Assembly (NCBI GenBank): GCA_028718605.1
Contig: JAQULM010000003.1
Span: forward strand, 16,971 to 80,970
From: Patescibacteria group bacterium
GTDB taxonomy: Bacteria; Patescibacteriota; Patescibacteriia; UBA10025; JAHIVO01
Length of the DNA stretch: 64,000 nucleotides
Direction: 5' to 3'
Part shown: in pieces, positions 1 to 51,471 of the stretch
Numbering within the stretch: position 1 is the first letter of the stretch
Layout of the letters: each line of letters begins with the position of its first letter
Position numbers and translations under genes: made by a program
Notes under the pieces: generated by a model
Seen by the model: only the letters and a program-made list of their open reading frames with translations
Database searches by the model: none
What the model was told of the DNA's origin: nothing

Positions 1-1
1 G

Positions 2-132
2 TGGGCTTACGGAGCCGTTGGGATCACGGTTCTCGCTTCAGCAGTAACTTGCTTCTGGAGCTGGGAAGTCGCGCTTGCGGTCCTCTGTATCGGGATAGGG
101 ATTACGATTTTCTTGAATAGGAGGGGCAAATA
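2..132 (+). CDS. 3' end of a membrane protein gene (partial, C-terminal hydrophobic helices)
   Basis: Frame 2 translates to WAYGAVGITVLASAVTCFWSWEVALAVLCIGIGITIFLNRRGK followed by TAA. TM-like composition. The gene is truncated by the window edge. Confidence 0.35.
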
Positions 133-220
133 ATCGTAACGCATGAAGCGTCTGATGGGTTGGGAGTTGCGACAATCCCAACGGGACAATGGGCTCCGCT
201 TGAACAAACGACAGCGGAGC

Positions 221-556
221 TCACATTTTTATTAAACAAGGACACCCTTTCTCGCGCAGCATTTTCATCTGCCGCAGCGGCGTGTCGACATACACGTTTT
301 GGCGGGAACTCCCGCGTGCTCTCCGATGATCGAGCGGTGAACGGTGCCGATAACCACGCAGTGTCATTTCACGGACAAGCAAAGAATGGCGCGCATAGAG
401 TGCTTTGAGTTTTCCGGACCACCGGACAGTTTCAGGATGGCGGCGATACCCTCGCTTATTCTGCGTCAGTACCACCCAAATGGCATGAAGCTCCCGATGT
501 TCCCCGAGGAGGTGCTGCCGGCAAAGATGCTTCGGATGGATATCCCAAATCCGCAC
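221..556 (-). CDS. pyrimidine dimer DNA glycosylase (Pyr_excise / T4 endonuclease V-like)
   Basis: MRIWDIHPKHLCRQHLLGEHRELHAIW resembles the conserved N-terminus of the Pyr_excise family (MRxWSLHPxYLD...L..EYREL). It starts 12 bp downstream of the heliorhodopsin stop on the same strand. Confidence 0.7.
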   Translation of the reverse strand: MRIWDIHPKHLCRQHLLGEHRELHAIWVVLTQNKRGYRRHPETVRWSGKLKALYARHSLLVREMTLRGYRHRSPLDHRRARGSSRQNVYVDTPLRQMKMLREKGCPCLIKM

Positions 557-568
557 GTGAGACTGCGA

Positions 569-1366
569 TCAAACGGGACGGAGCGTGCCTGCCCACACCT
601 GCCACGCGAGCAGCGACTTCGCGACGAGGCTCAAGATGATATACGCACGTTCGCCATACAGGTAATCCCGCCACTTACCGGTCTTCTTGTACTGGAGCAC
701 CATGTTCGCAGCAAATACGTTGAAGAAGAGGAAAATAGAAAAATAAATCCAGTATACGAATGTCGGCGGCTTTGCGTCACCCTCGCCGGCGCTGAACAAA
801 TAGAGCGCAACTGCTACCCACGGAATTGCTCCGGCAATGCAACCAAAAATATATGAAGTCCAGTTTGTTCTTGCGGTTGTTTGGTTATGCAGCTCCATGA
901 CCCAGCCAAACAGTATCATCATCGCGTTGAGAAAGAAAAGAAGCATCAAGCTGATGCCGTCGTAAACGCCGACGAGCAATGCAATAACCACGATCATCAG
1001 GGACGAGCTGAATGAGTATTCAACCCAGCGTGCGAGATTCATTCCCTTCAGCAGGTTGCGGTTGTACCATGCATGAATGCCAGGAACCAAGGAGATGGAC
1101 GCGTGCGCGATCGCTGATAAGAACAGAAAGGCGGCAACGAGCGGCCCGATCGGGATGTCAAAAAGCGTATTGAGAGACGGCTGGAGTTTGCCGGAGGCGA
1201 AATCCATCTTCACGAATGCCGTTGTCACGGGGACGCTAAAATCCGAACTCAGTATGAGCATAAGGACACCTTGCACAGCGTGCAAAAATGCCATGATGAT
1301 ATTGAACCGTTTGAGCTTCTTTAGTTTAATTTCCTCGGGTTGAGGTACGGTTGTTGCTGTTTCCAT
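569..1366 (-). CDS. heliorhodopsin (7-TM retinal protein)
   Basis: 265 aa with 7 TM segments. Strong similarity to heliorhodopsin 48C12: RWVEYSFSSSLMIV (counterion Glu), MILFGWVMELHNQ, FGCIAGAIPW, GERAYIILSLVAKSLLAWQVWAGTLRPV (retinal Schiff-base Lys in SLVAKS). Confidence 0.9.
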   Translation of the reverse strand: METATTVPQPEEIKLKKLKRFNIIMAFLHAVQGVLMLILSSDFSVPVTTAFVKMDFASGKLQPSLNTLFDIPIGPLVAAFLFLSAIAHASISLVPGIHAWYNRNLLKGMNLARWVEYSFSSSLMIVVIALLVGVYDGISLMLLFFLNAMMILFGWVMELHNQTTARTNWTSYIFGCIAGAIPWVAVALYLFSAGEGDAKPPTFVYWIYFSIFLFFNVFAANMVLQYKKTGKWRDYLYGERAYIILSLVAKSLLAWQVWAGTLRPV

Positions 1367-1447
1367 AATGTTTAAAATTATTTGGTAACACTATAATATT
1401 ACCTAAAAATACAGACATGTCCAATTCGTGCATTTGCGCGTTTTAAG

Positions 1448-1494
1448 AGATAAAAATAACGCCCGCCGTGAATCACGATACCACAGCGGGCGTA
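1448..1494 (-). terminator. rho-independent terminator downstream of the 1498..2013 gene
   Basis: Hairpin acgcccgc ... gcgggcgt immediately after the stop codon, followed on the minus strand by TTATTTTTAT. Confidence 0.5.
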
Positions 1495-1497
1495 TGC

Positions 1498-2013
1498 CTA
1501 ATACTCGGAGCGGCGGAATCGCCGTATAACCCTCTTCACGAAGTCCGTCCGCAGCCACACAAAAAACTTTTTCATGTACGGTGCGCCAAGGAACATGGAT
1601 AAATCGGAAACGAGGACACCGAAGATAATTCCGGTGTTGAATCCGCTGATCCAGTGTATGCCCAAATCTACGAGCGCTGGACGTAGGAAAAGAGTGTCGA
1701 TGATTTCAATCCCAAGATACTCTTCTGATATATCGCGGATCGCCTTGAAAATGGTCCGTAGGTACTTCCCATTGTCCGGCTTATAGCGCTCATGTTTCCA
1801 GTGGTAACAGAGGGCCATAGTAATCGCGCATATATAGAAAGCGATGAGATCAGACCATGAAATCACCTCGTCAATCACGATACGATTATCTGTATATTGA
1901 ATGACGATGTTACCGCCGATGAGCGCCCCGAGGACACTTGCGACGATTTGGTTTCTATACCTTCGTAGGCGCTCCTCAAACCATCTGATAAGAGAAACCC
2001 ATACGCGTTTCAA
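1498..2013 (-). CDS. hypothetical membrane protein
   Basis: 171-aa ORF with hydrophobic segments. It is followed by a terminator. No recognisable family. Confidence 0.45.
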   Translation of the reverse strand: MKRVWVSLIRWFEERLRRYRNQIVASVLGALIGGNIVIQYTDNRIVIDEVISWSDLIAFYICAITMALCYHWKHERYKPDNGKYLRTIFKAIRDISEEYLGIEIIDTLFLRPALVDLGIHWISGFNTGIIFGVLVSDLSMFLGAPYMKKFFVWLRTDFVKRVIRRFRRSEY

Positions 2014-4818: not shown

Positions 4819-5963
4819 TTACTTCCCGAAATTCACCCCGCCGCGGAAACCGATCGGAAACACCCAGAACCAGTCTTTGAGCACCCCGGTGTCGGTGTCG
4901 TAGTCATACACCCGGAGATTCGGGCCGCCGTGGGATGCCGGGGAGGTCATGACCTCGTCAAACCCGTCAGCGTCGACGTCGTTCACGAACAGGTTAACGC
5001 CACCCATGAAATGGGCGTCGTACGCCATGAATGAATCAACTTCTTCGAAATCGCCCCCCTGGTACCGCAACACCTTCACTGTGGAATCGCCAAGCGTCTT
5101 GGGGGCAAGCACCACCTCATTGGAGCCGTCACCGTCCGTATCCCCCACCTGCATGGACAGGGTGCCGCGATAGGAGCTGTCGTACGCCATGAGCCAGTCG
5201 AGGAGCTCCAGCTCGTCACTGCCATTCAGTGTGTAAATGCGGATGTTCGGGCCGCCGTTCAGGAAGGGCGCGACGATGATGTCGTCGTTCCCGTCAGAAT
5301 CCACATCCCCGGTAGCCACCTGCACACCGCCAAAGAAGGTGTCTTGGTACGCGGTAACGCTATCGACTAAATCAAACTCCTGGTCTGCGGCGCTATAGCG
5401 GAATACCTTTACAATGGGCGCCATCGCGCCGCGCGGGGTTACGATGAGCTCGTCAACACCGTCGGAATCCAGGTCACCCGATGCCAGGTTGACCCCGCCG
5501 CGGAACTCCTCGCTGTAGCCAAAAAACCAGTCCATGAGCTCAAATTCCTCTTCAGCGACATTGTACGTATAGATGCGGATGTTCGGGCCGCCGGCGCCGA
5601 TCGGCGTCACGGCAATGTCTTCCTTGTGGTCGCCGTCAAAGTCGCCCGTGGCAAGGTTGACGCCGCCGGTAAATCCCTCGTTGAACGCGAGGGTATTCGC
5701 CATTTCCGTGCCATCGAGCTCAAACGCCTTGATGCGGGACTCAACCCCGGCGCCGGGGGTGATAACAATTTCATTCACGCTGTCTGCGTCAATATCTGCC
5801 TGCGCAACTTCGAGGCCCATGCGCAAACTCTGGTCGTAGGCGAAGAACGACTCGATCTGGGTGCCGTCATCCTCGACGATGCGCACGTTGGGGCCGCCTG
5901 CTGAGGCGGGGGTAACGACGATGCCGAGGGATGGGATCGCGTCTGAAGTCATAAAGGTCCATG
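4819..5963. repeat. ~1.14-kb near-identical direct repeat, copy A (3' part of paralog 1)
   Basis: Identical to 32513..33658 apart from 2 nt near the stop. Antisense ORF-track entries 4949..5173, 5573..5839 and 5626..5904 are identical to 32643..32867, 33267..33533 and 33320..33598. Confidence 0.85.
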
Positions 5964-7407
5964 CAGTTTGCGACTCGTTTCCCAGTTCATCACTTGCCGT
6001 TACCGCAACCTCAACAGTTTCGCGGTAATAAAAGTTATCATCTGGATTGATAGTCACCGTGTAACCGTGGGTGCCATTCCAGCCCATTGTACCACCATAC
6101 CCAGACTCATAAACTCCATCGGTAACCGCCCGATGGCCGTTTATGGTTACGTCAATCGAATAGGTATCAACTTCCCAGAGCTCGTCACTGACGAAAAAGC
6201 TCACGTCAGAATTTGGTGAAACGCCGGTTTCTGCGCTTCCCGGGCTCAAGTTGTCAAACGTCGGCCCTGTTGTATCGGCAACAAATCCGTCCCAAACGCC
6301 TGCGCCATCAACAGTATTCTCGGTACCGATATATAAATGATGGCCATGCTCGACCAATCCATACGCGCGCGTATTGCTGCTATCGCCGAATCCGTCATCA
6401 TTCACCTGGGCAAAGGTGTTACCATCGTACGTCCAGACCTCTGCACCAGTTACGAGGTTGCGCGTGCCAAACGTCAGTGTACTGTTGTACTTGGTAATCG
6501 CAAGCAAGGTCGCGTTATTCAAATCGCCGAAGCCATCATCACCGATCTGGGTAAAAGTACTGCCGTCGTACGTCCAGGCTTCCACGCCGGTCGTCGGGTT
6601 CCATGTCCCAATATACAATACGCTACCGTTTGCATAGAGGGAAAACGGCTCCAAATTATTGATGTCACCAAACCCATCATCGTTGAGCGCAGTCCAGGAT
6701 GTTCCGTCGTATTCATGGAGTTGCCCGCCGGTTACCACATTGCCCGCGCCTGCTAAAAGCTTCCCATTATACTCAACCAGGGAATCGGTGTACAAATTGC
6801 CAGCATCGCCGAATCCGTCATCGTTCACCTGGTTCCAGTCGGTGCCATCGTATGACCAAATCTCAGCGCCAGTCCAAAAATTGTACGAACCAACATACAG
6901 CTTTTCATCAAAGACGAGCATCGAAAAACCGCTAAAGTTGTGCACATCGCCGAAACCATTGGTATTAACCTGGGTCCACACGCTACTGCGGTACCGCCAC
7001 ACCTCGACGCCAGTAATTTCATTGTACGTAGCGACATACAGTGAGCCATTATATTCCGCCATGCTGCTAATAATAACATTGTTTGCATCCCCGAAGCCAT
7101 CAGTATTCACTTGGCTCCAGACATCACCATCATACGCCCACACTTCAGCGCCAGTTGTGGCATTTGATGTGCCGACATAGAGCTGATCAGAGCTCACCAG
7201 CGACATCGTACGGGTGTTATTCACATCACCGAACCCGCCACTGTCACTTTCTGACCAGGTAATTGCAGCGTGCACACTGGCCGGAACCAGCCACGCTGCA
7301 ACAGCAAAAACAGCCACGGCAATGAATGCCCTGACATTGTGTCCATTTCCCATACTCGTATGTTTAATTGTTATCCCTCTCGCATTCAGTATAGTATACA
7401 ATTCCAC
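4819..7407 (-). CDS. large secreted two-propeller protein, paralog 1: N-terminal YDG..W..QVN.DGFGD repeats, Ig-like middle domain, C-terminal FG-GAP-like repeats
   Basis: 862 aa with signal peptide. About 7 N-terminal ~50-aa repeats (..TG.E.W.YDG..W.QVN.DGFGD..N). 7 C-terminal repeats of GGVNLATGDFDGDHKEDIAV type (FG-GAP/integrin-alpha-like). Ends in FRGGVNFGK. Confidence 0.8.
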   Translation of the reverse strand: MELYTILNARGITIKHTSMGNGHNVRAFIAVAVFAVAAWLVPASVHAAITWSESDSGGFGDVNNTRTMSLVSSDQLYVGTSNATTGAEVWAYDGDVWSQVNTDGFGDANNVIISSMAEYNGSLYVATYNEITGVEVWRYRSSVWTQVNTNGFGDVHNFSGFSMLVFDEKLYVGSYNFWTGAEIWSYDGTDWNQVNDDGFGDAGNLYTDSLVEYNGKLLAGAGNVVTGGQLHEYDGTSWTALNDDGFGDINNLEPFSLYANGSVLYIGTWNPTTGVEAWTYDGSTFTQIGDDGFGDLNNATLLAITKYNSTLTFGTRNLVTGAEVWTYDGNTFAQVNDDGFGDSSNTRAYGLVEHGHHLYIGTENTVDGAGVWDGFVADTTGPTFDNLSPGSAETGVSPNSDVSFFVSDELWEVDTYSIDVTINGHRAVTDGVYESGYGGTMGWNGTHGYTVTINPDDNFYYRETVEVAVTASDELGNESQTAWTFMTSDAIPSLGIVVTPASAGGPNVRIVEDDGTQIESFFAYDQSLRMGLEVAQADIDADSVNEIVITPGAGVESRIKAFELDGTEMANTLAFNEGFTGGVNLATGDFDGDHKEDIAVTPIGAGGPNIRIYTYNVAEEEFELMDWFFGYSEEFRGGVNLASGDLDSDGVDELIVTPRGAMAPIVKVFRYSAADQEFDLVDSVTAYQDTFFGGVQVATGDVDSDGNDDIIVAPFLNGGPNIRIYTLNGSDELELLDWLMAYDSSYRGTLSMQVGDTDGDGSNEVVLAPKTLGDSTVKVLRYQGGDFEEVDSFMAYDAHFMGGVNLFVNDVDADGFDEVMTSPASHGGPNLRVYDYDTDTGVLKDWFWVFPIGFRGGVNFGK

Positions 7408-11471: not shown

Positions 11472-13943
11472 TTGGAAGAACGCCTGGCTCCCACGCTTGC
11501 TTTTTGGTACACTGGGAACATTATGGGGCACCCTATGAGCAAAACCTCCAGCCAACTGAATTGGTACGTGCACCCGTCAATCATCTATGGCGTCGTTTTC
11601 GCTTCTGGTGCGGCTGCCTTGATGTATGAACTGCTCTGGATCCGGACGTTAAATTTGCTTTTTGGCGTCAGCAGCTTTGCCGTAACGACTGTCGTCAGTA
11701 TTTTCCTGCTCGGTTTGGGGCTCGGCGGCTATTTTTTCGGCCGCCAAACTGAAAAAACGCCAACTCCGCTCCGCCTCTACGCCTGGATTGAGCTCGGCAT
11801 CGCCGCGCTCACTGGATTGTCATTGGTGGCTGTGGAATACACTCCCCTGTTTTCCGGCCTGCACGCCCTGATCTACAACCACGCAAACCTCTACATACTT
11901 TCACTGGTGCGTCTTCTGATGACATGCGTCATCCTGTTTCCCGCAACTTTCTGCCTCGGAGGAACCGTGCCAATACTCTGCAAGTACTTTATTAAAAAAG
12001 ATGAGACGCTTGGATCAAGGTTTACCCTCTTGTACCTCCTGAACACGCTCGGCGGCTTTACGGGAGCGATTGCCGCTGGTTTCATTACCGTCCGCTTTTT
12101 TGGCACGACGGCATCATACCTCATGGCTATCGCGATGAATGTCGCGATTTTCTTCACCATACGGGCATGCAGGAAAATTTCAACTGCGCCACCGGAAAAA
12201 AGTGAGGACCACGCCGTACCCGACCGCCCTGAACCCCCTAAAAGAAATATGGGCCTGGCACTGTTCATTTCCGGTTTTATTGCCCTTGGTTTTGAAATCG
12301 TATGGATCCGCGTATTAACAAATTTTGGCTCAGGCACTACCTTGTCCTCCACGCTCATTCTGAGCGGTTTCTTGCTCGGGTTTGCAATCGGCAGCGTATT
12401 TGTCGTCCGGCTCATTGACAGGTCAAAAAATGTATTACGGCTTCTTGTAGCCTGTTTTATAACCCTCGGCACCGCCGCAACGCTGTCCTTTCTCGGATTT
12501 GGCATGCTCAACACATATTTCCCTGATCCGTTCATAAGTTACAAAGCCATGCTCGTCGAGTCGTTCGTTGGCTTTGGCTTTTCATTTGTCCTTGCAATTT
12601 TCATGGGGACGATTTTTCCGCTGAGCGTCCGGCTGTATGCCGGTACTGCGGCGATGATAGGCCGAAAATCGGGTTATGCATATTTCATTAATTCCCTTGG
12701 AACGGTAGCCGGGAGCATCACGGCTGGTTTTGGGCTTATCCCGTTTGTTGGAATCAGGAATTCCGGCCTGGTTCTTATCTCGCTGTGCTTTCTGACCGCT
12801 GGCTACCTGGCAATCCGGCTGATCCAGGGCCGCCGGCTCCTGATTGGCATCGCTGCTGTACTCCTAGTGGCTTCCTGCGCTTCGATCATGGCAAGCAACC
12901 AGGTTTTTCACCGCTTGTCTGCGGGGTCGAAGGAACTATTTTATGCTGAAGGATTATCTGCAACTGTTACCGTACAGGAAATTACCATGCTCTCGGAAAC
13001 GTACAAAACATTGAATGTGGACAGCGAAACCGTTGCAAGCACCCATCATACCGGCGTCGTCGATTCAAAATTATTAGCCCATATCCCACTCATGCTTATC
13101 GATGAACCGAAACGGGCAGTCACGGTCGGATACGGTTCGGGCGGAACGAGCCATAGCATGCTCCAGTACGGCTGCGAAGTTATTGCCCTCGAAATTGAGC
13201 GGCAGGTCATCGAGGCCAGCCGGGAATTTACCGACCTCAACCAGCACGCGGAGACAAATCCGAAACTGCAGATCATCATTGATGACGCGCGTAACTACCT
13301 GGCGAATACGGAAACCGCGTTCGATGCGATTGTGACCGATGTCACGAATTTGAAATACAAGAGCAACCCGTACTTATATACGCAGGAGTATTTCGAAGCC
13401 ATGCGAAACGCCCTTGCCCCGGACGGCGTCGCCGCAGCATGGGTACCGCTCGGCGGCCTCTCGTTCAGTGACCTGAAGATTCTCCTGAAAACGTTCCAGA
13501 CTGTTTATCCGCACACGACTGTCTGGTACGATTACTATGACGCCACAGGATTTCTTATTATTACCGGCACGCCTGAAAAAATGCTGTTTGATTTCGAAAA
13601 AGTGCACCAACGCATCCAGCGGGCAACCACCGACCTTGAATCCATCGAGCTCAGTGACGTGTACAGCCTCGGCTCTTTCCTCTTACTCGGGGAGCGTGAC
13701 GTCAAAATGCTCAGTGCCGGCTCGGCGGTCAATACAGACGACCGTCCGGTGCTGGAATTTACTGACCTCGATTCGTATTCGCGTCCCAACCAGTTTAAAA
13801 ACCTGGAGCAGCTCCTGGCATCCCAAAACGAAATACTCGAGAGTTACTATACGTTCAGCTCGAGCGATGAAGAAAAAATACTGCAAGCACTACACAACGG
13901 GCGCACCATCATGAACGGTTATATAAGCGGGATCGCCCCGTAG
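11472..13943 (+). CDS. fused membrane-domain / spermidine-synthase-like aminopropyltransferase
   Basis: 823 aa. About 14 N-terminal TM helices. C-terminal SpeE-like domain (VTVGYGSGGT..IIIDDARNYL..DAIVTDV). Confidence 0.7.
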   Translation: MEERLAPTLAFWYTGNIMGHPMSKTSSQLNWYVHPSIIYGVVFASGAAALMYELLWIRTLNLLFGVSSFAVTTVVSIFLLGLGLGGYFFGRQTEKTPTPLRLYAWIELGIAALTGLSLVAVEYTPLFSGLHALIYNHANLYILSLVRLLMTCVILFPATFCLGGTVPILCKYFIKKDETLGSRFTLLYLLNTLGGFTGAIAAGFITVRFFGTTASYLMAIAMNVAIFFTIRACRKISTAPPEKSEDHAVPDRPEPPKRNMGLALFISGFIALGFEIVWIRVLTNFGSGTTLSSTLILSGFLLGFAIGSVFVVRLIDRSKNVLRLLVACFITLGTAATLSFLGFGMLNTYFPDPFISYKAMLVESFVGFGFSFVLAIFMGTIFPLSVRLYAGTAAMIGRKSGYAYFINSLGTVAGSITAGFGLIPFVGIRNSGLVLISLCFLTAGYLAIRLIQGRRLLIGIAAVLLVASCASIMASNQVFHRLSAGSKELFYAEGLSATVTVQEITMLSETYKTLNVDSETVASTHHTGVVDSKLLAHIPLMLIDEPKRAVTVGYGSGGTSHSMLQYGCEVIALEIERQVIEASREFTDLNQHAETNPKLQIIIDDARNYLANTETAFDAIVTDVTNLKYKSNPYLYTQEYFEAMRNALAPDGVAAAWVPLGGLSFSDLKILLKTFQTVYPHTTVWYDYYDATGFLIITGTPEKMLFDFEKVHQRIQRATTDLESIELSDVYSLGSFLLLGERDVKMLSAGSAVNTDDRPVLEFTDLDSYSRPNQFKNLEQLLASQNEILESYYTFSSSDEEKILQALHNGRTIMNGYISGIAP

Positions 13944-15541: not shown

Positions 15542-18112
15542 CTATTTCCCGAAATTCACCCCGCCGCGGAATCCTTCCGGGAATGCCCAGAACCACGATT
15601 TCAACACGCGGGTGCCGGATTCCATGTCGTACACACGGACATTCGGGCCACCGAGGGAGGCGGGCGAAGTCATCACCTCGTCAATGCCGTCCCCGTCTAC
15701 GTCAGCGAGAAACAGGTTCACCCCGCCGCGGAACGCTTCGTCGTACGCCATGAACCAATCCATCAATGCGAGCGAATTATTTTCGTAACGGTAGATACGC
15801 ACGTTCGGGCCGCCCAACGACTGGGGAACGAGGGTTATTTCCCCCTTGCCATCGCCGTTCACGTCACCGACGGACATGGAGAGCGTGCCGCGGTACGTGT
15901 CTTGGTATGCCATGACCCAGGTCAAGAGCTCGAGGTCACCGTCAGCGTTCACGGTATACACGCGGATATTCGGGCCGCCATTCAGGTAGGGGGAAACGAT
16001 GACGTCGTCCGCACCATCGCCGTTGATGTCGCCCGTCCCGAGCTGTACGCCACCATGGTACGCCGACTGGTATGCCATGACGCTTGTCGTCAATTCAAAC
16101 TCGCCCCGTGAGGCGCTGTACTTGAAAACGCGCACGTCGGGGCCACCCTGGCCGCGCGGCGCGGTTATGATTTCGTCGATACTATCACCATCCAGATCCC
16201 CGGCAACCACGTTCACGCCGCCGCGGAACGCAGCATCATAGGCAAAGAACCAGTCAGTGAGGTCCAGCCCATCACCCGCCGCATTGAGCGAGTAGATGCG
16301 CACGTTCGGGCCGCCTGCGGATATCGGAGCGACGGCAATGTCTTCACGGTCGTCGCCGTCAAAGTCACCGGTTGCCACGGTCACGCCGCCGGTGAAGCCT
16401 TCATTGAACGCGAGCGTCGAAGCGATCTCGGTACCGTCAAGCTCAAATGCCTTGATGCGGGACTCAACCCCCTGGCCCGGCGTCACGACAATCTCATTTA
16501 CTGAGTCAGCGTCAATATCCGCCTGCGCAACCTCGAGGCCCATGCGCAACGACTGGTCATAGACGAAGAAGGATGAAATCTGGGCGCCTGCCTCGTCAAC
16601 AACGCGCACGTTCGGGCCGCCCTTGGATGCGGGAGACATGACAATGCCCAACGACGGCCGATCAGCCGTTGTGGTGAATTCCCACGACGGCGTACTCGCA
16701 TTCCCCCGTGCATCACTCACTGTCACGCTCACCGCTACGGGAGTGCCGTAGCCGTACCCACTGCTGGAATTTATTACCACGTGCAGGCTCCCGTCTTCAT
16801 TCGCGGTGACCGTCCCGAAATAGCCATCTTCAAACTGCCCAGCGCTCACCGCACGGTGGCCGGCCACGCTGACACCAAGCGTTGCGCTGTCAACATCATA
16901 CACCGCATCCGTCAGGGTGAAGGAAATGGCTACGCGGGGATCTACTCCGCGGTCACCGCCCGCGGGAGACTGCTCACTCGCCACTGGGCCGACGCCGTCA
17001 GGGAGGGATGTTTCCCAGATCTCCGTGCCACTATTCATGCCCGCCGTCCCAACGTAGAGTACCCCGCCGATCGTCGTCAGCATTGAGGAGCTAAAATTTT
17101 CGTGGTGTCCGAAGCCGTCCTCATTAACCTGCTCCCATGACGATCCGTCATACGCCCACAGTTCGGTGCCGGTAGTGGGATTCGTCGTGCCCGCATACAG
17201 CGTATGGTTATAATCAACTAAAGAAAATACGTCATAATTATTCGAACCGTCGCCAAACCCGCCGCTGCGCACCTCGGTACACGCCGTCCCGTCGTACGCC
17301 CACACTTCCCCGCCATCGGTCGAATTCCGCGTGCCGATAAAGAGTTGCCCGTCAAAAACCTGTACGTCAATGAATCCTAAGTTATCGGCATTGCCAAACC
17401 CGTCGGTGCACACCTGTGACCAGTCAGTACCGTCGTATTCCCACAGTTCGGCGCCTGTTCCCGGCGCTGCCCTGAGGGTACCGATGAACAGGTGGCTTCC
17501 GTACTCCTGCATGCTCATGCAGTAGGCATTGTTGGCATCGCCGAAGCCGTCCTCGTTCACCTGCGACCATGCATCGCCGTCGTACGCCCACATCTCGCAC
17601 CCGGCAACTTCATTCGTCGTGCCGGTGAAAAGGATATCGTCATATATAAACAGATTATACGACATCGTATTGAGTGGGTCGCCGAAGCCGTCCTCGTTCA
17701 CCTGCTCCCATGACGATCCATTATACGCCCACAGTTCGGTCCCGGTTACGTCATTGACCGTGCCGACGTACAGCATGCCTTCGAACACTTCGACGCTCGC
17801 CGCTTCAACATTATTTCCGTCGCCGAAGCCGTCCTCGTTCACCTGCTCCCATGACGATCCATCGTAGCGCCAGACCTCAGCGCCCGTCTCCCAGTTCGTG
17901 ACGCCCGTATAGAGGTCGTCATCGTACTCAACGAGCGAATACGAGATAGTATTAAACGAATCGCCGAAGCCGTCCTCATTACTCTGCGTCCAGGCAAGGC
18001 TCTGGGCACTGGCAATGCTTGGGACCATGGCCCAGACCGCAAAAAAACCCAGTGCAACAAGGCCTGCTACAATATAAACACCGCTGCTTCGCATTGGTAG
18101 TGATTGCTGCAT
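15542..18112 (-). CDS. large secreted two-propeller protein, paralog 2 (diverged copy)
   Basis: 856 aa with the same architecture as paralogs 1 and 3. The C-terminal FG-GAP-like region is roughly 75-80% identical to the other copies. Ends in FRGGVNFGK. Confidence 0.8.
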   Translation of the reverse strand: MQQSLPMRSSGVYIVAGLVALGFFAVWAMVPSIASAQSLAWTQSNEDGFGDSFNTISYSLVEYDDDLYTGVTNWETGAEVWRYDGSSWEQVNEDGFGDGNNVEAASVEVFEGMLYVGTVNDVTGTELWAYNGSSWEQVNEDGFGDPLNTMSYNLFIYDDILFTGTTNEVAGCEMWAYDGDAWSQVNEDGFGDANNAYCMSMQEYGSHLFIGTLRAAPGTGAELWEYDGTDWSQVCTDGFGNADNLGFIDVQVFDGQLFIGTRNSTDGGEVWAYDGTACTEVRSGGFGDGSNNYDVFSLVDYNHTLYAGTTNPTTGTELWAYDGSSWEQVNEDGFGHHENFSSSMLTTIGGVLYVGTAGMNSGTEIWETSLPDGVGPVASEQSPAGGDRGVDPRVAISFTLTDAVYDVDSATLGVSVAGHRAVSAGQFEDGYFGTVTANEDGSLHVVINSSSGYGYGTPVAVSVTVSDARGNASTPSWEFTTTADRPSLGIVMSPASKGGPNVRVVDEAGAQISSFFVYDQSLRMGLEVAQADIDADSVNEIVVTPGQGVESRIKAFELDGTEIASTLAFNEGFTGGVTVATGDFDGDDREDIAVAPISAGGPNVRIYSLNAAGDGLDLTDWFFAYDAAFRGGVNVVAGDLDGDSIDEIITAPRGQGGPDVRVFKYSASRGEFELTTSVMAYQSAYHGGVQLGTGDINGDGADDVIVSPYLNGGPNIRVYTVNADGDLELLTWVMAYQDTYRGTLSMSVGDVNGDGKGEITLVPQSLGGPNVRIYRYENNSLALMDWFMAYDEAFRGGVNLFLADVDGDGIDEVMTSPASLGGPNVRVYDMESGTRVLKSWFWAFPEGFRGGVNFGK

Positions 18113-50306: not shown

Positions 50307-50381
50307 TGGCGGGGCCACGAGGAGTCGAACCTCGATCAGCGGTTTTGGAGACCGCTATACTAGCCATTGTACTATAGCCCC
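50307..50381 (-). tRNA. tRNA-Trp(CCA)
   Basis: Cloverleaf with anticodon loop CUCCAAA. T-arm GGTTCGACTCC. CCA encoded. Confidence 0.85.
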
Positions 50382-50400
50382 TCGGGCGAAACAGCGTACG

Positions 50401-50556
50401 TTATTTCGTTTCCTTGTGCAACGTATGTTTGTCGCACCACTTGCAGAACTTCTTGAGTTCAATACGCTGCTTCAACGTTTTCTTATTTTTCTTCGAGTGG
50501 TAATTGATGCGATGGCATTCTTTGCACTCAAGCTTGATGAGATTTTCCTGTGACAT
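50401..50556 (-). CDS. rpmG: 50S ribosomal protein L33
   Basis: 51 aa with CKEC...CKWC zinc-ribbon. Classic position beside tRNA-Trp. Confidence 0.8.
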
Positions 50557-50691
50557 ATGTGTTATTAATGTTAATCTTCGAAGCACCCCGATGCCCGGAG
50601 AATCGGTGTTTTATCGGAACCATTCTTCATCGGGGGACCCCATCACGCTGATGCGGGATGGGGAAAGTGGGCTCGTTGCGAAGGGTGAAGC

Positions 50692-50854
50692 GGAGCCACC
50701 CGTCGGATTTGAACCGACGACCTACTGTTTACAAAACAGTTGCTCTTCCGGGGCATTCGGATCGCCTTCAGCGATAACCTCACGCCCGCCTCGATGGGCG
50801 CAACTGAAGCAGTTCAGTTGCTTTTGCCATCTCGGCCCACTGAGCTAGGGTGTC
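50692..50854 (-). pseudogene. tRNA-Thr(UGU)-like copy with ~88-nt insertion in the D-loop and acceptor-stem mismatch
   Basis: The 3' two-thirds is identical to the adjacent tRNA-Thr. The D-loop GGTA is replaced by a structured ~88-nt insert. Acceptor position 2 is A instead of C. The 3' end is CCG, not CCA. Confidence 0.5.
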
Positions 50855-50929
50855 TGGAGCCACCCGTCGGATTTGAACCGACGACCTACTGTTTACAAAA
50901 CAGTTGCTCTACCACTGAGCTAGGGTGGC
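50855..50929 (-). tRNA. tRNA-Thr(UGU)
   Basis: GCCACCCTAGCTCAGTGGTAGAGCAACTGTTTTGTAAACAGT..GGTTCAAATCC..GGGTGGCTCCA with anticodon UGU. Confidence 0.85.
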
Positions 50930-50932
50930 ACA

Positions 50933-51015
50933 TGGGTGGAGTAGGATTCGAACCTACGAAGCCCGGAGGCAACAGATTTACAGTCTGTCCCAGTTGACCA
51001 CTTTGGTATCCACCC
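50933..51015 (-). tRNA. tRNA-Tyr(GUA) (long variable arm)
   Basis: GGGTGGATACCAAAGTGGTCAACTGGGACAGACTGTAAATCTGT + long variable arm + GGTTCGAATCC. Confidence 0.85.
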
Positions 51016-51265
51016 GTGATTCCTCTTTTTTAAGTAACGTCGTGAACGCTTTACCGCCTTTGTATTTTTTTATCTGCATCTCCCTTTTGTAGGCATCCGT
51101 TTTGGATAAAAAAGATTCCGTATGAATTAATGTCCAAGGACGCCCATTTCGAGTCGAGTGCACTCTACCGCGATTATGCTGCATGAGTCGAGTGGATAAG
51201 GTACGTGTATGCCCAATATAATGCTTTCCTGTTTTTTCACTTTTTATAATATAGACGGTGTGCAT
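50978..51265 (-). CDS. GIY-YIG nuclease domain protein (small, standalone)
   Basis: MHTVYIIKSEKTGKHYIGHTRTLSTRLMQHNRG...RPWTLIHTESFLSKTDAYKREMQIKKYKGGK carries the GIY...YIG...R...E motifs. Its 3' end runs into the tRNA-Tyr gene. Confidence 0.6.
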   Translation of the reverse strand: MHTVYIIKSEKTGKHYIGHTRTLSTRLMQHNRGRVHSTRNGRPWTLIHTESFLSKTDAYKREMQIKKYKGGKAFTTLLKKEESRVDTKVVNWDRL

Positions 51266-51320
51266 GATGCACCAAGATTTATGCCGCCTCTGGCGGCACC
51301 CCGCCAAAGGCGGTGGCAGT

Positions 51321-51355
51321 CTGTCCCAGTTGACCACTTTGGTATCCACCCGTGA
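51321..51355 (-). repeat. duplicated 5' half of tRNA-Tyr (acceptor, D-arm and anticodon stem) with no 3' half
   Basis: 35 nt identical to the 5' half of the intact tRNA-Tyr (cagtctgtcccagttgaccactttggtatccaccc). Confidence 0.7.
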
Positions 51356-51395
51356 TAGCGATTTCAAACGAAGCATGCGATGCCCCCGCCGCCTC

Positions 51396-51471
51396 TGGAG
51401 CCGTTGGCCGGAATTGAACCGGCGACCTACTCCTTACCATGGAGTTGCTCTACCAACTGAGCTACAACGGC
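51396..51471 (-). tRNA. tRNA-Thr(GGU)
   Basis: GCCGTTGTAGCTCAGTTGGTAGAGCAACTCCATGGTAAGGAGT..GGTTCAATTCC..CCA. Confidence 0.85.

What the first reader, a model, noticed from the sequence alone, without database searches (positions are those of the whole stretch)
221..1500. Heliorhodopsin co-operonic with a pyrimidine-dimer DNA glycosylase (light sensor + UV-lesion repair)
A clear heliorhodopsin gene (conserved WVEYS counterion, SLVAKS Schiff-base Lys) sits 12 bp upstream of a Pyr_excise / T4-endoV-like glycosylase gene on the same strand. An AT-rich promoter region lies upstream and a terminator closes the preceding gene. Heliorhodopsin function is still debated. As I recall, their gene neighbourhoods have been reported to be enriched for photolyase and other light-protection genes, and an interaction with photolyase has been proposed. 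An operon with a different cyclobutane-dimer repair enzyme, a glycosylase rather than a photolyase, would be independent support for a role in light-triggered UV-damage repair.
Basis: partly seen in the sequence, partly recalled or inferred. Interest (0 to 1): 0.6.

Follow-up and report, generated by a model that had tools for sequence, protein, structure and literature searches.

The report
Heliorhodopsin plus UV-dimer glycosylase operon
A light-sensing membrane protein (heliorhodopsin) and a small enzyme that cuts UV-damaged DNA are encoded as one tightly coupled two-gene unit in this tiny bacterium and at least six relatives, a new but narrowly distributed case of heliorhodopsins sitting next to DNA-repair genes.

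Summary
On the minus strand of this Patescibacteria window there is a full-length heliorhodopsin (569-1366) with its key residues intact. Twelve bases downstream, in the same frame, is a 111-aa T4-endonuclease-V-type pyrimidine-dimer glycosylase (221-556) that keeps the catalytic Glu and the conserved N-terminus. A strong terminator and a promoter-like site lie upstream, and hairpins lie downstream.

The adjacency is not unique. I found it in six more loci, usually with only 3 nt between stop and start. One locus (L013) carries a leftover second HeR tail in front of pdg. It is lineage-restricted: about 5 of 11 close HeR relatives, 3 of 45 species-level HeR loci, and none of 59 pdg-anchored metagenome loci. 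Both genes are under strong purifying selection.

In the same HeR sample, four Bacillota/Mycoplasmatota loci have photolyase next to HeR. Two unrelated dimer-repair enzymes therefore recur beside HeR.

No paper I found reports a HeR-pdg pair, and gene callers often miss the pdg gene.

Most likely this is a co-transcribed, translationally coupled damage-response operon. Direct light-gating of the glycosylase by HeR is plausible but untested. Caveats are the very basic pdg and the landfill leachate and groundwater origin of two of the pairs.

The parts
1449..1493 (-). Intrinsic terminator of the preceding gene (1498..2013): a 13-bp GC-rich stem followed by UUAUUUUUAU.
   Evidence: RNA fold -24.3 kcal/mol, z -3.1; sequence read directly.
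1396..1423 (-). Promoter-like site TGGACA-16 nt-TAATAT in the AT-rich spacer. It lies about 30 nt upstream of the HeR ATG. There is no Shine-Dalgarno motif.
   Evidence: Consensus scan, 9 of 12 matches. This is a pattern match only; no function is shown.
569..1366 (-). Heliorhodopsin gene, 265 aa. It has counterion E116 (RWVEYS), Schiff-base K250 (SLVAK) and a C-terminal tail GTLRPV.
   Evidence: PF18761 E 8e-100; NCBIfam HeR 342 bits; alignment to 6is6; a 100% identical protein is annotated HeR in a Patescibacteria MAG.
557..568 (-). 12-nt spacer (TCGCAGTCTCAC) between the HeR TGA stop and the pdg GTG start. It is in frame and has no Shine-Dalgarno motif. The homologous junctions in relatives are 3 nt.
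221..556 (-). Pyrimidine-dimer DNA glycosylase (T4 endonuclease V family), 111 aa, GTG start. The N-terminus is MRIWD, the catalytic Glu is E22, and there is a C-terminal CxC motif.
   Evidence: PF03013 E 1e-27; PHROG 1183; hhalign register to T4 endoV; AF2 model with pLDDT 90.9 whose top four PDB matches are T4 endoV.
159..222 (-). Two stable hairpins directly after the pdg stop, with no U-run. They are a likely transcript end or bidirectional stop before a small convergent ORF.
   Evidence: Fold -25.5 kcal/mol, z -3.2. A role as terminator is inferred.
1..133 (+). 3' part of a small convergent ORF (72 aa in the longer contig L105, a possible 2-TM peptide). It was not called by the gene callers and only marks the end of the unit.
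   Evidence: ORF listing on L105.

Best explanation
This is a selected two-gene operon. HeR and pdg are transcribed together from the promoter-like site upstream of HeR, between the upstream terminator and the hairpins after pdg.

pdg has no ribosome-binding site. It starts 3-12 nt after the HeR stop, so it is most likely translated by ribosomes that have just finished HeR (termination-reinitiation). That would tie its amount, and probably its place of synthesis at the membrane, to HeR.

The enzyme is a cofactor-free T4-endoV-type glycosylase/AP-lyase. It would start base-excision repair of cyclobutane dimers. The nucleophile would be the alpha-amino group of Met1, which sits in the register of Thr2 in T4 endoV. 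The catalytic acid would be E22, the equivalent of Glu23.

The unit serves a shared light/UV-damage response, parallel to the HeR-photolyase pairs of Bacillota.

Shown here: gene identities, operon anatomy, recurrence of the pair, purifying selection, and survival of the pair through rearrangement and one transfer. Inferred: co-transcription, translational coupling, CPD specificity, and any link to light.
For: Identities and anatomy.

The same head-to-tail, in-frame junction occurs in other loci:
- L002 (TAA+3 nt+ATG) and L003 (TAG+3).
- L130 (TAG+3).
- L131 (3 nt, called as PF03013).
- L134 (TGA+3).
- L013, where a second HeR tail 'VFAGTLRPV*' sits 3 nt before pdg. It differs from the resident tail at 7 positions, all synonymous, and is close in nucleotide sequence to the L134 junction. 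This indicates that a HeR-tail+pdg piece was transferred.

All three stop codons are used at the junction, and TGA ends 17 of 64 window genes, so these are real stops.

The window and group B share the whole cluster: an AF_1845-like lipoprotein (52% identity), a 255-264-aa anchored protein (47-54%), HeR (about 80%) and pdg (57%). The order is rearranged, yet HeR-pdg stayed joined.

dN/dS is 0.06-0.10 for pdg and 0.04-0.10 for HeR, at dS about 1.

Other HeR loci carry photolyase (4 of 45), MsrA (6), desulfoferrodoxin (2) or a DNA-alkylation repair enzyme (2) as neighbours. Damage-repair partners are therefore a recurring theme.

Published HeR partners encoded in the same operon are functionally coupled to HeR (PMC9769723, PMC11109279).
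Against: - The pair is rare: 3 of 45 species-level HeR loci, about 5 of 11 among the closest HeRs, and 0 of 59 pdg-anchored metagenome loci and 0 of 15 viral pdg loci.
- Close relatives have lost it cleanly (L001, L135).
- It may have a single origin, so recurrence is partly shared ancestry.
- HeR's downstream neighbours are very diverse: 85 Pfam families in 81 neighbours.
- There are no expression data.
- L130 comes from a landfill leachate well and L002 from a groundwater well, where sunlight and UV are not expected.
Confidence: 0.55

Rival explanations
1. Helper-rhodopsin model. HeR physically binds pdg through its cytoplasmic face, and illumination raises glycosylase activity or releases the enzyme. 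A light-independent repair enzyme would thereby become light-gated, as reported for HeR with class-2 CPD photolyase, glutamine synthetase and an ABC transporter.
For: - Precedents: TfHeR binds photolyase and raises its activity about 3-fold (PMC9769723). OcHeR binds OmrDE and stimulates it in light (PMC11109279).
- The 3-nt coupling would make pdg at the membrane beside nascent HeR.
- The pair stays joined through rearrangement and transfer.
Against: - No binding data exist.
- pdg has pI 11.2 and net charge about +17, whereas published HeR-partner contacts depend on positively charged HeR loops. The same electrostatic mode is therefore unlikely.
- No HeR-pdg fusion protein exists among the best 120 hits to a chimeric query.
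- No HeR residue distinguishes linked from unlinked HeRs beyond phylogeny.
- pdg works on the chromosome, not at the membrane.
Confidence: 0.25
2. Neutral hitch-hiking. pdg is a small, frequently transferred accessory gene that once landed behind HeR's stop codon and uses HeR's promoter. The pair persists by inertia in one lineage, without any functional relation to light sensing.
For: - pdg relatives sit in many unrelated contexts: next to MGMT, MacB/FtsX, purine genes and ABC-2 genes.
- They also occur on viral contigs.
- 0 of 59 pdg-anchored loci have HeR.
- HeR has many different tight downstream partners, for example VIT1 3 nt after HeR in L133.
- The pair is lost in L001 and L135.
Against: - The pair survived synonymous-site saturation and a rearrangement that moved the other cluster genes.
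- A HeR-tail+pdg piece was acquired by a second lineage (L013).
- The neighbour is a dimer-repair enzyme, and an unrelated dimer-repair enzyme (photolyase) flanks HeR in 4 other loci. That is an unlikely coincidence among hundreds of gene families.
Confidence: 0.2
3. The link is to general DNA or oxidative damage rather than UV. The short MRIWD-type enzyme would act mainly as an AP lyase or on other lesions, and HeR marks a photo-oxidative stress module.
For: - This 109-aa subfamily differs from T4 endoV. It is shorter and has invariant C12 and C105-x-C107.
- It is below the cutoff of NCBIfam TIGR02328.
- I found no characterised member.
- Other HeR neighbours are oxidative-damage genes: MsrA x6, desulfoferrodoxin x2, and AhpC in L130/L131.
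- Bulzu et al. propose an oxidative-stress role for HeR (PMC8612252).
- Some pairs come from dark habitats.
Against: - The family assignment and the catalytic register point to the CPD glycosylase mechanism.
- There is no positive evidence for another substrate.
Confidence: 0.2
4. Stop-codon read-through or recoding makes a single HeR-pdg fusion protein, because the two ORFs are in frame and separated by one stop.
For: The in-frame arrangement is seen in all seven junctions.
Against: - TAA, TAG and TGA all occur at the junction, and TGA is a normal stop in the window.
- The HeR C-terminus is extracellular (PMC9166423), so a fused pdg would be on the wrong side of the membrane.
- A fusion would block the N-terminal amine that the family uses as nucleophile.
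- No fused proteins were found.
Confidence: 0.01

Closest known systems
HeR-photolyase operon of Trichococcus flocculiformis (TfHeR/TfPHR; Shim et al. 2022, PMC9769723)
   Same: A heliorhodopsin is encoded beside an enzyme that repairs cyclobutane pyrimidine dimers, with the proposed logic 'light sensor helps UV-damage repair'. My own sample shows photolyase next to HeR in 4 Bacillota/Mycoplasmatota loci.
   Different: - Here the partner is a cofactor-free, light-independent glycosylase of an unrelated fold, not a flavin photolyase.
- The host is Patescibacteria.
- The genes are head-to-tail with 3-12 nt between them, whereas three of my four photolyase loci are divergent.
- Binding and light stimulation are shown for TfHeR and untested here.
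T4 endonuclease V (DenV; PDB 2END, 1VAS), Pfam PF03013
   Same: - A Pfam match well above threshold.
- The conserved QHL..E.RE motif with E22 = Glu23, R21 = Arg22 and R2 = Arg3.
- The N-terminal amine in the same register.
- The AF2 model's only meaningful PDB matches are T4 endoV.

   Different: - It is 111 aa rather than 138 aa.
- Met1, not Thr2, would carry the nucleophilic amine.
- It has invariant Cys12 and Cys105-x-Cys107, which T4 endoV lacks.
- Sequence identity is about 20%.
- phmmer finds no PDB hit.
- Activity of this cellular subfamily was not found in the literature I searched.
Ten HeR neighbour-gene groups of Nat Commun 2024 (PMC11109279) and the gene-context survey of Bulzu et al. 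2021 (PMC8612252)
   Same: HeR is the first gene of short operons with varied partners. Repair and stress genes are over-represented.
   Different: [quoted passage not shown] It is not mentioned in either text.

Membership tests
Heliorhodopsin (PF18761 / NF038020) | Full-length profile match above the curated cutoff | tested here: met
   PF18761 333.5 bits (cutoff 26.7), covering 1-242 of 242 model positions. NF038020 342 bits (cutoff 100).
Heliorhodopsin (PF18761 / NF038020) | Retinal Schiff-base Lys in helix 7 within SxxxK, and the single Glu counterion in helix 3 | tested here: met
   S246-L-V-A-K250 and RWVE116YS align with the same residues of the solved TaHeR structure 6is6.
Heliorhodopsin (PF18761 / NF038020) | Inverted topology (N-terminus inside), retinal binding and a slow photocycle | not testable with these tools
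   Inferred only, from about 50% identity to solved HeRs.
Pyrimidine-dimer DNA glycosylase / T4 endonuclease V (PF03013) | Profile match above the gathering score | tested here: met
   96.8 bits against 23, residues 1-75 on model positions 1-79 of 81. PHROG 1183 at E 1e-8.
Pyrimidine-dimer DNA glycosylase / T4 endonuclease V (PF03013) | Catalytic Glu23 and flanking Arg residues | tested here: met
   hhalign puts QHLLGEHRELH on QHLMAEYRELP, giving E22 = Glu23 and R21 = Arg22. By the same register, R2 = Arg3. E22 and R2 are invariant and R21 nearly invariant in 38 homologues. The T4 sequence was verified against 2END.
Pyrimidine-dimer DNA glycosylase / T4 endonuclease V (PF03013) | Free N-terminal alpha-amino group at the correct register (Thr2 in T4) | tested here: inconclusive
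   Met1 aligns with Thr2, and MRIWD is nearly invariant. Met-Arg should keep its Met (general knowledge). The chemistry is untested.
Pyrimidine-dimer DNA glycosylase / T4 endonuclease V (PF03013) | T4 endoV all-helical fold | tested here: met
   AF2 model with pLDDT 90.9. Foldseek ranks 1-4 are all T4 endoV, probability 0.85-0.94 and TM 0.56-0.62, but E is only 0.23.
Pyrimidine-dimer DNA glycosylase / T4 endonuclease V (PF03013) | CPD-specific N-glycosylase plus AP-lyase activity | not testable with these tools
   No characterised member of the 109-aa MRIWD subfamily was found.
NCBIfam TIGR02328 family | Score above the curated cutoff | tested here: not met
   27.6 bits against a cutoff of 121. 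It is related but not a member.
HeR 'regulatory helper' operons (HeR plus partner enzyme) | Partner gene on the same strand within operon distance | tested here: met
   12 nt here and 3 nt in five other loci.
HeR 'regulatory helper' operons (HeR plus partner enzyme) | Adjacency conserved across genomes | tested here: met
   Seven loci in all, restricted to one lineage plus one transfer: 3 of 45 species-level HeR loci.
HeR 'regulatory helper' operons (HeR plus partner enzyme) | Physical binding and light-dependent change of partner activity | not testable with these tools
   No data. The charge of pdg (pI 11.2) argues against the published electrostatic binding mode.

The most novel reading that the evidence does not exclude
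Heliorhodopsin acts as a light-controlled tether or activator of a cofactor-free pyrimidine-dimer glycosylase. Genome-reduced Patescibacteria would gain a retinal-based functional analogue of photoreactivation without a flavin photolyase. The HeR-tail+pdg unit would spread as a small cassette between genomes.
Probability: 0.15. Interest if true: 0.75.

Novelty: new variant of a known kind. Interest (0 to 1): 0.45.

Why it matters
What heliorhodopsins do is still open. The best-supported answers so far come from partners encoded next to them.

A second, mechanistically unrelated dimer-repair enzyme coupled to HeR strengthens the link between HeR and DNA-damage repair. The coupling is tight (3 nt), and one transfer carried a piece of HeR along with pdg. 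This also offers a very simple test system: a 265-aa HeR, a 111-aa cofactor-free enzyme and a gel-based nicking assay.

The case also shows that neighbourhood surveys based on gene calls can miss this partner, because the pdg ORF was not called in three of the contigs I examined.

The value is limited by the narrow distribution and by the absence of any functional data.

Tried and rejected
- **Recoding or read-through fusion.** Rejected. All three stop codons occur at the junction, TGA is a normal stop, the HeR C-terminus is extracellular, and no fused proteins appear among the best 120 hits to a pdg+HeR-segment chimera.
- **Independent origins for each linked pdg.** The NJ tree supports only group B (100%) and places the window with L013, P0146, P0213 and P0143. 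At first this suggested independent recruitment. Shared synteny, with neighbour identities of 47-54%, shows that 57% pdg identity fits vertical descent, so I do not claim multiple origins.
- **HeR residues specific to pdg-linked HeRs.** Only phylogenetic signal was found.
- **HeR in IMG/VR viral contigs.** No relatives. The 15 viral pdg loci have no HeR.
- **Nearest pdg relatives.** P0143, P0127, P0186, P0145 and P0213 are not HeR-linked.
- **phmmer of pdg against PDB.** No hit. A profile and a structure model were needed.
- **Sample lookup.** Only IMG 3300029288 could be traced. The window's own sample was not identified.
Full report
**What is there**

The finding lies on the minus strand. 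ORF 569..1366 (265 aa) is a complete heliorhodopsin. It matches Pfam PF18761 at E 8e-100 over the entire model and the NCBIfam HeR equivalog at 342 bits against a cutoff of 100. It gives E 2e-77 to the solved Thermoplasmatales HeR 6is6. That alignment preserves RWVEYS (counterion Glu116) and SLVAKS (Schiff-base Lys250).

ORF 221..556 (111 aa, GTG start) is a member of the T4 endonuclease V / Pyr_excise family. It matches PF03013 at E 1e-27, 96.8 bits against a cutoff of 23, and PHROG 1183 'endonuclease V N-glycosylase UV repair enzyme' at E 1e-8.

The two ORFs are separated by 12 nt and are in the same frame. The preceding gene is closed by a 13-bp GC hairpin plus U-run at 1449..1493 (-24.3 kcal/mol, z -3.1). 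A TGGACA-16-TAATAT site sits in the AT-rich spacer. Two stable hairpins follow the pdg stop, ahead of a small convergent ORF.

Identical proteins are annotated in a Patescibacteria MAG. TGA ends 17 of 64 predicted genes in the window, and both genes have ordinary GC content.

**Is the glycosylase intact?**

Single-sequence search finds no solved relative. A profile of 38 homologues aligns QHLLGEHRELH with QHLMAEYRELP of T4 endoV. I checked the T4 sequence against 2END. This gives E22 = catalytic Glu23 and R21 = Arg22. By the same register, R2 = Arg3, and the alpha-amino group of Met1 falls in the register of Thr2. The PHROG alignment shows the same one-residue offset.

MRIWD, E19-H-R-E22-L-H and further positions are invariant or nearly so across the family. 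An AlphaFold model (pLDDT 90.9) has T4 endoV structures as its top four PDB matches and nothing else meaningful. Probability is up to 0.94 and TM about 0.6, although the Foldseek E-value is only 0.23.

The refutation condition 'lacks the catalytic N-terminal residues' is therefore not met.

This about 109-aa cellular subfamily differs from the phage enzyme. It is shorter, it starts with Met-Arg, and it has invariant Cys12 and Cys105-x-Cys107. I found no biochemical work on it.

**Is the adjacency conserved?**

Among 45 HeR loci from species-representative genomes, a pdg HMM finds the gene directly downstream on the same strand in three: L002, L003 and L013. It finds nothing elsewhere, even at permissive thresholds.

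Look-ups of further close HeR homologues added L130 and L131. A look-up of the pdg nearest to L013's added L134. That contig begins with the HeR tail ...SLVAKSLLAWQVFGGTLRPV*, then TAC, then ATG-RIWD.

The junctions are TAA+3 nt, TAG+3, TAG+3, 3 nt, TGA+3 and, in the window, TGA+12. All are in frame and none has a Shine-Dalgarno motif.

In L013 the resident HeR ends normally. It is followed by about 80 nt containing a hairpin, and then by a second HeR tail (VFAGTLRPV, stop) 3 nt before pdg. The two tails differ at seven positions, all synonymous. The second tail is close in nucleotide sequence to the L134 junction. L013 therefore acquired pdg together with the end of a foreign HeR gene.

**How far does it reach?**

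Not far. Among the 11 HeRs at least about 75% identical to the window's, five have pdg: the window, L002, L003, L130 and L131. Six do not: L001, L004, L005, L133, the P0012 contig and L135.

L001 is nested inside the pdg-bearing group (HeR 91% identical to L002). Its homology to L002 breaks exactly after the HeR stop, which indicates loss or replacement.

From the other side, none of 59 metagenome loci anchored on pdg relatives carries HeR or a HeR tail, and none of 15 viral pdg loci does. The closest pdg relatives sit in unrelated contexts.

An NJ tree supports only the L002/L003/L130/L131 pdg clade (100%). It groups the window's pdg with L013, P0146 (=L134), P0213 and P0143.

This first looked like independent recruitment. 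However, the window and group B share the whole cluster: an AF_1845-like lipoprotein (52% identity), a 255-264-aa anchored protein (47-54%), HeR (about 80%) and pdg (57%). The pdg divergence is what vertical descent predicts. The cluster has been rearranged: the two surface-protein genes lie upstream of HeR in group B and downstream of pdg in the window. HeR-pdg stayed joined throughout.

Within group B, dN/dS is 0.06-0.10 for pdg and 0.04-0.10 for HeR, at dS about 1.

The fair summary is one old linkage in one Patescibacteria lineage, repeatedly lost, plus at least one lateral transfer of the unit.

**Context from other HeR loci**

HeR's neighbours are very diverse: 85 Pfam families among 81 downstream genes. 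Damage-repair functions nevertheless recur. Peptide methionine sulfoxide reductase occurs in six loci, desulfoferrodoxin in two, and a DNA-alkylation repair enzyme in two. Photolyase occurs in four Bacillota/Mycoplasmatota loci: L038, L040, L041 and L045.

In one sample of 45 species, seven HeR genes are flanked by a dimer-specific repair enzyme of one of two unrelated families. No photolyase homologue is present in the 64-kb window.

**Literature**

The HeR-photolyase interaction is published: Kd 21.7 uM and about 3-fold stimulation (PMC9769723). Bulzu et al. note photolyase and UvdE next to Znf-HeRs and propose a photo-oxidative stress role (PMC8612252). A 2024 survey sorts HeR operons into ten partner groups, none of which is pdg (PMC11109279).

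Searches combining heliorhodopsin with 'pyrimidine dimer', 'glycosylase', 'DNA repair' or 'Patescibacteria' found no report of this pair.

One reason may be technical. The pdg ORF was not called in contigs L105, L106 and L130.

**Mechanism**

Best supported (confidence about 0.55) is a selected bicistronic operon. The two genes are co-transcribed, and pdg is translated by reinitiation after HeR. Its level, and probably its site of synthesis, would be tied to HeR, serving a common damage response.

Direct light-gating of pdg by HeR (about 0.25) has good precedent but no evidence here. It also faces a charge problem. pdg has pI 11.2, while published partner binding relies on positively charged HeR loops.

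Neutral hitch-hiking (about 0.2) fits the narrow distribution and pdg's mobility. It fits poorly with persistence through rearrangement, with transfer as a unit, and with the parallel photolyase pairs.

A read-through fusion is effectively excluded. The HeR C-terminus is extracellular.

**An unexplained point**

L130 comes from a landfill leachate well (IMG 3300029288). L002 comes from a groundwater well at the same site, judging by its record title. Yet both genes are under strong constraint.

**Verdict**

This is a real and correctly read feature. It is a new partner class for a known kind of HeR operon, restricted to a small lineage, and of moderate interest as an easily testable lead.

Noticed in passing
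L013:10793-10925: There is a recombination scar. After the resident HeR stop come about 80 nt with a hairpin, and then a second HeR C-terminal tail (VFAGTLRPV*) 3 nt before pdg. The two tails differ at 7 positions, all synonymous. The scar is close in nucleotide sequence to the L134 junction.
   Followed up: partly
L105:5876-7532 (just beyond window position 1); L130:4533-5877; L131:3642-4985; L002:8531-9880: An AF_1845-like lipoprotein (PF27226) and a 255-264-aa N-terminally anchored protein without a Pfam match accompany HeR in this lineage more consistently than pdg does. They are also present in L001, L004, L133, L135 and the P0012 contig. Their position relative to HeR varies and their function is unknown.
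   Followed up: partly
L105:4294-4629, L106:4294-4629, L130:6802-7140: The pdg ORF was not called by the gene callers on these contigs, although it is intact and conserved. Annotation-based neighbourhood surveys would miss the HeR-pdg pair.
   Followed up: yes
window 221-556 and alignments A1/A4: The about 109-aa pdg subfamily has invariant Cys12 and Cys105-x-Cys107, plus several invariant His, that T4 endoV lacks. This may be a metal site.
   Followed up: no
L133:5802-6500: In a Kerfeldbacteria genome a VIT1-family (iron transporter) gene starts 3 nt after the HeR stop, in the position pdg occupies elsewhere.
   Followed up: no
L038, L040, L041, L045, and the upstream neighbours of L001-L045: Photolyase is adjacent to HeR in four Bacillota/Mycoplasmatota loci. 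Peptide methionine sulfoxide reductase is upstream of HeR in six loci, desulfoferrodoxin in two, and a DNA-alkylation repair enzyme is downstream in two.
   Followed up: partly
L130 (IMG 3300029288), L002 and other 'SO_2016/2017' records: Several HeR loci, including two HeR-pdg pairs, come from landfill leachate and adjacent groundwater wells. These are dark habitats, which is odd for a light sensor and a UV-lesion enzyme under strong purifying selection.
   Followed up: partly
window 4819-7407 and 15542-18112: There are two large paralogous FG-GAP repeat surface proteins (862 and 856 aa; the first also has a Big_5 domain). Similar proteins lie near HeR in L005-L008 and L012.
   Followed up: no
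window 11472-13943: An 823-aa protein combines an MFS transporter-like N-terminal half (below the Pfam cutoff) with a spermidine synthase domain.
   Followed up: no
window 50307-51471: There is a cluster of five tRNA genes (Trp, Thr-TGT x2, Tyr, Thr-GGT). One of the two Thr-TGT copies scores only 32 bits against Rfam tRNA.
   Followed up: no
L107-L121: Pyr_excise relatives of this cellular subfamily (34-65% identity) occur on 15 IMG/VR viral contigs, none with HeR.
   Followed up: partly
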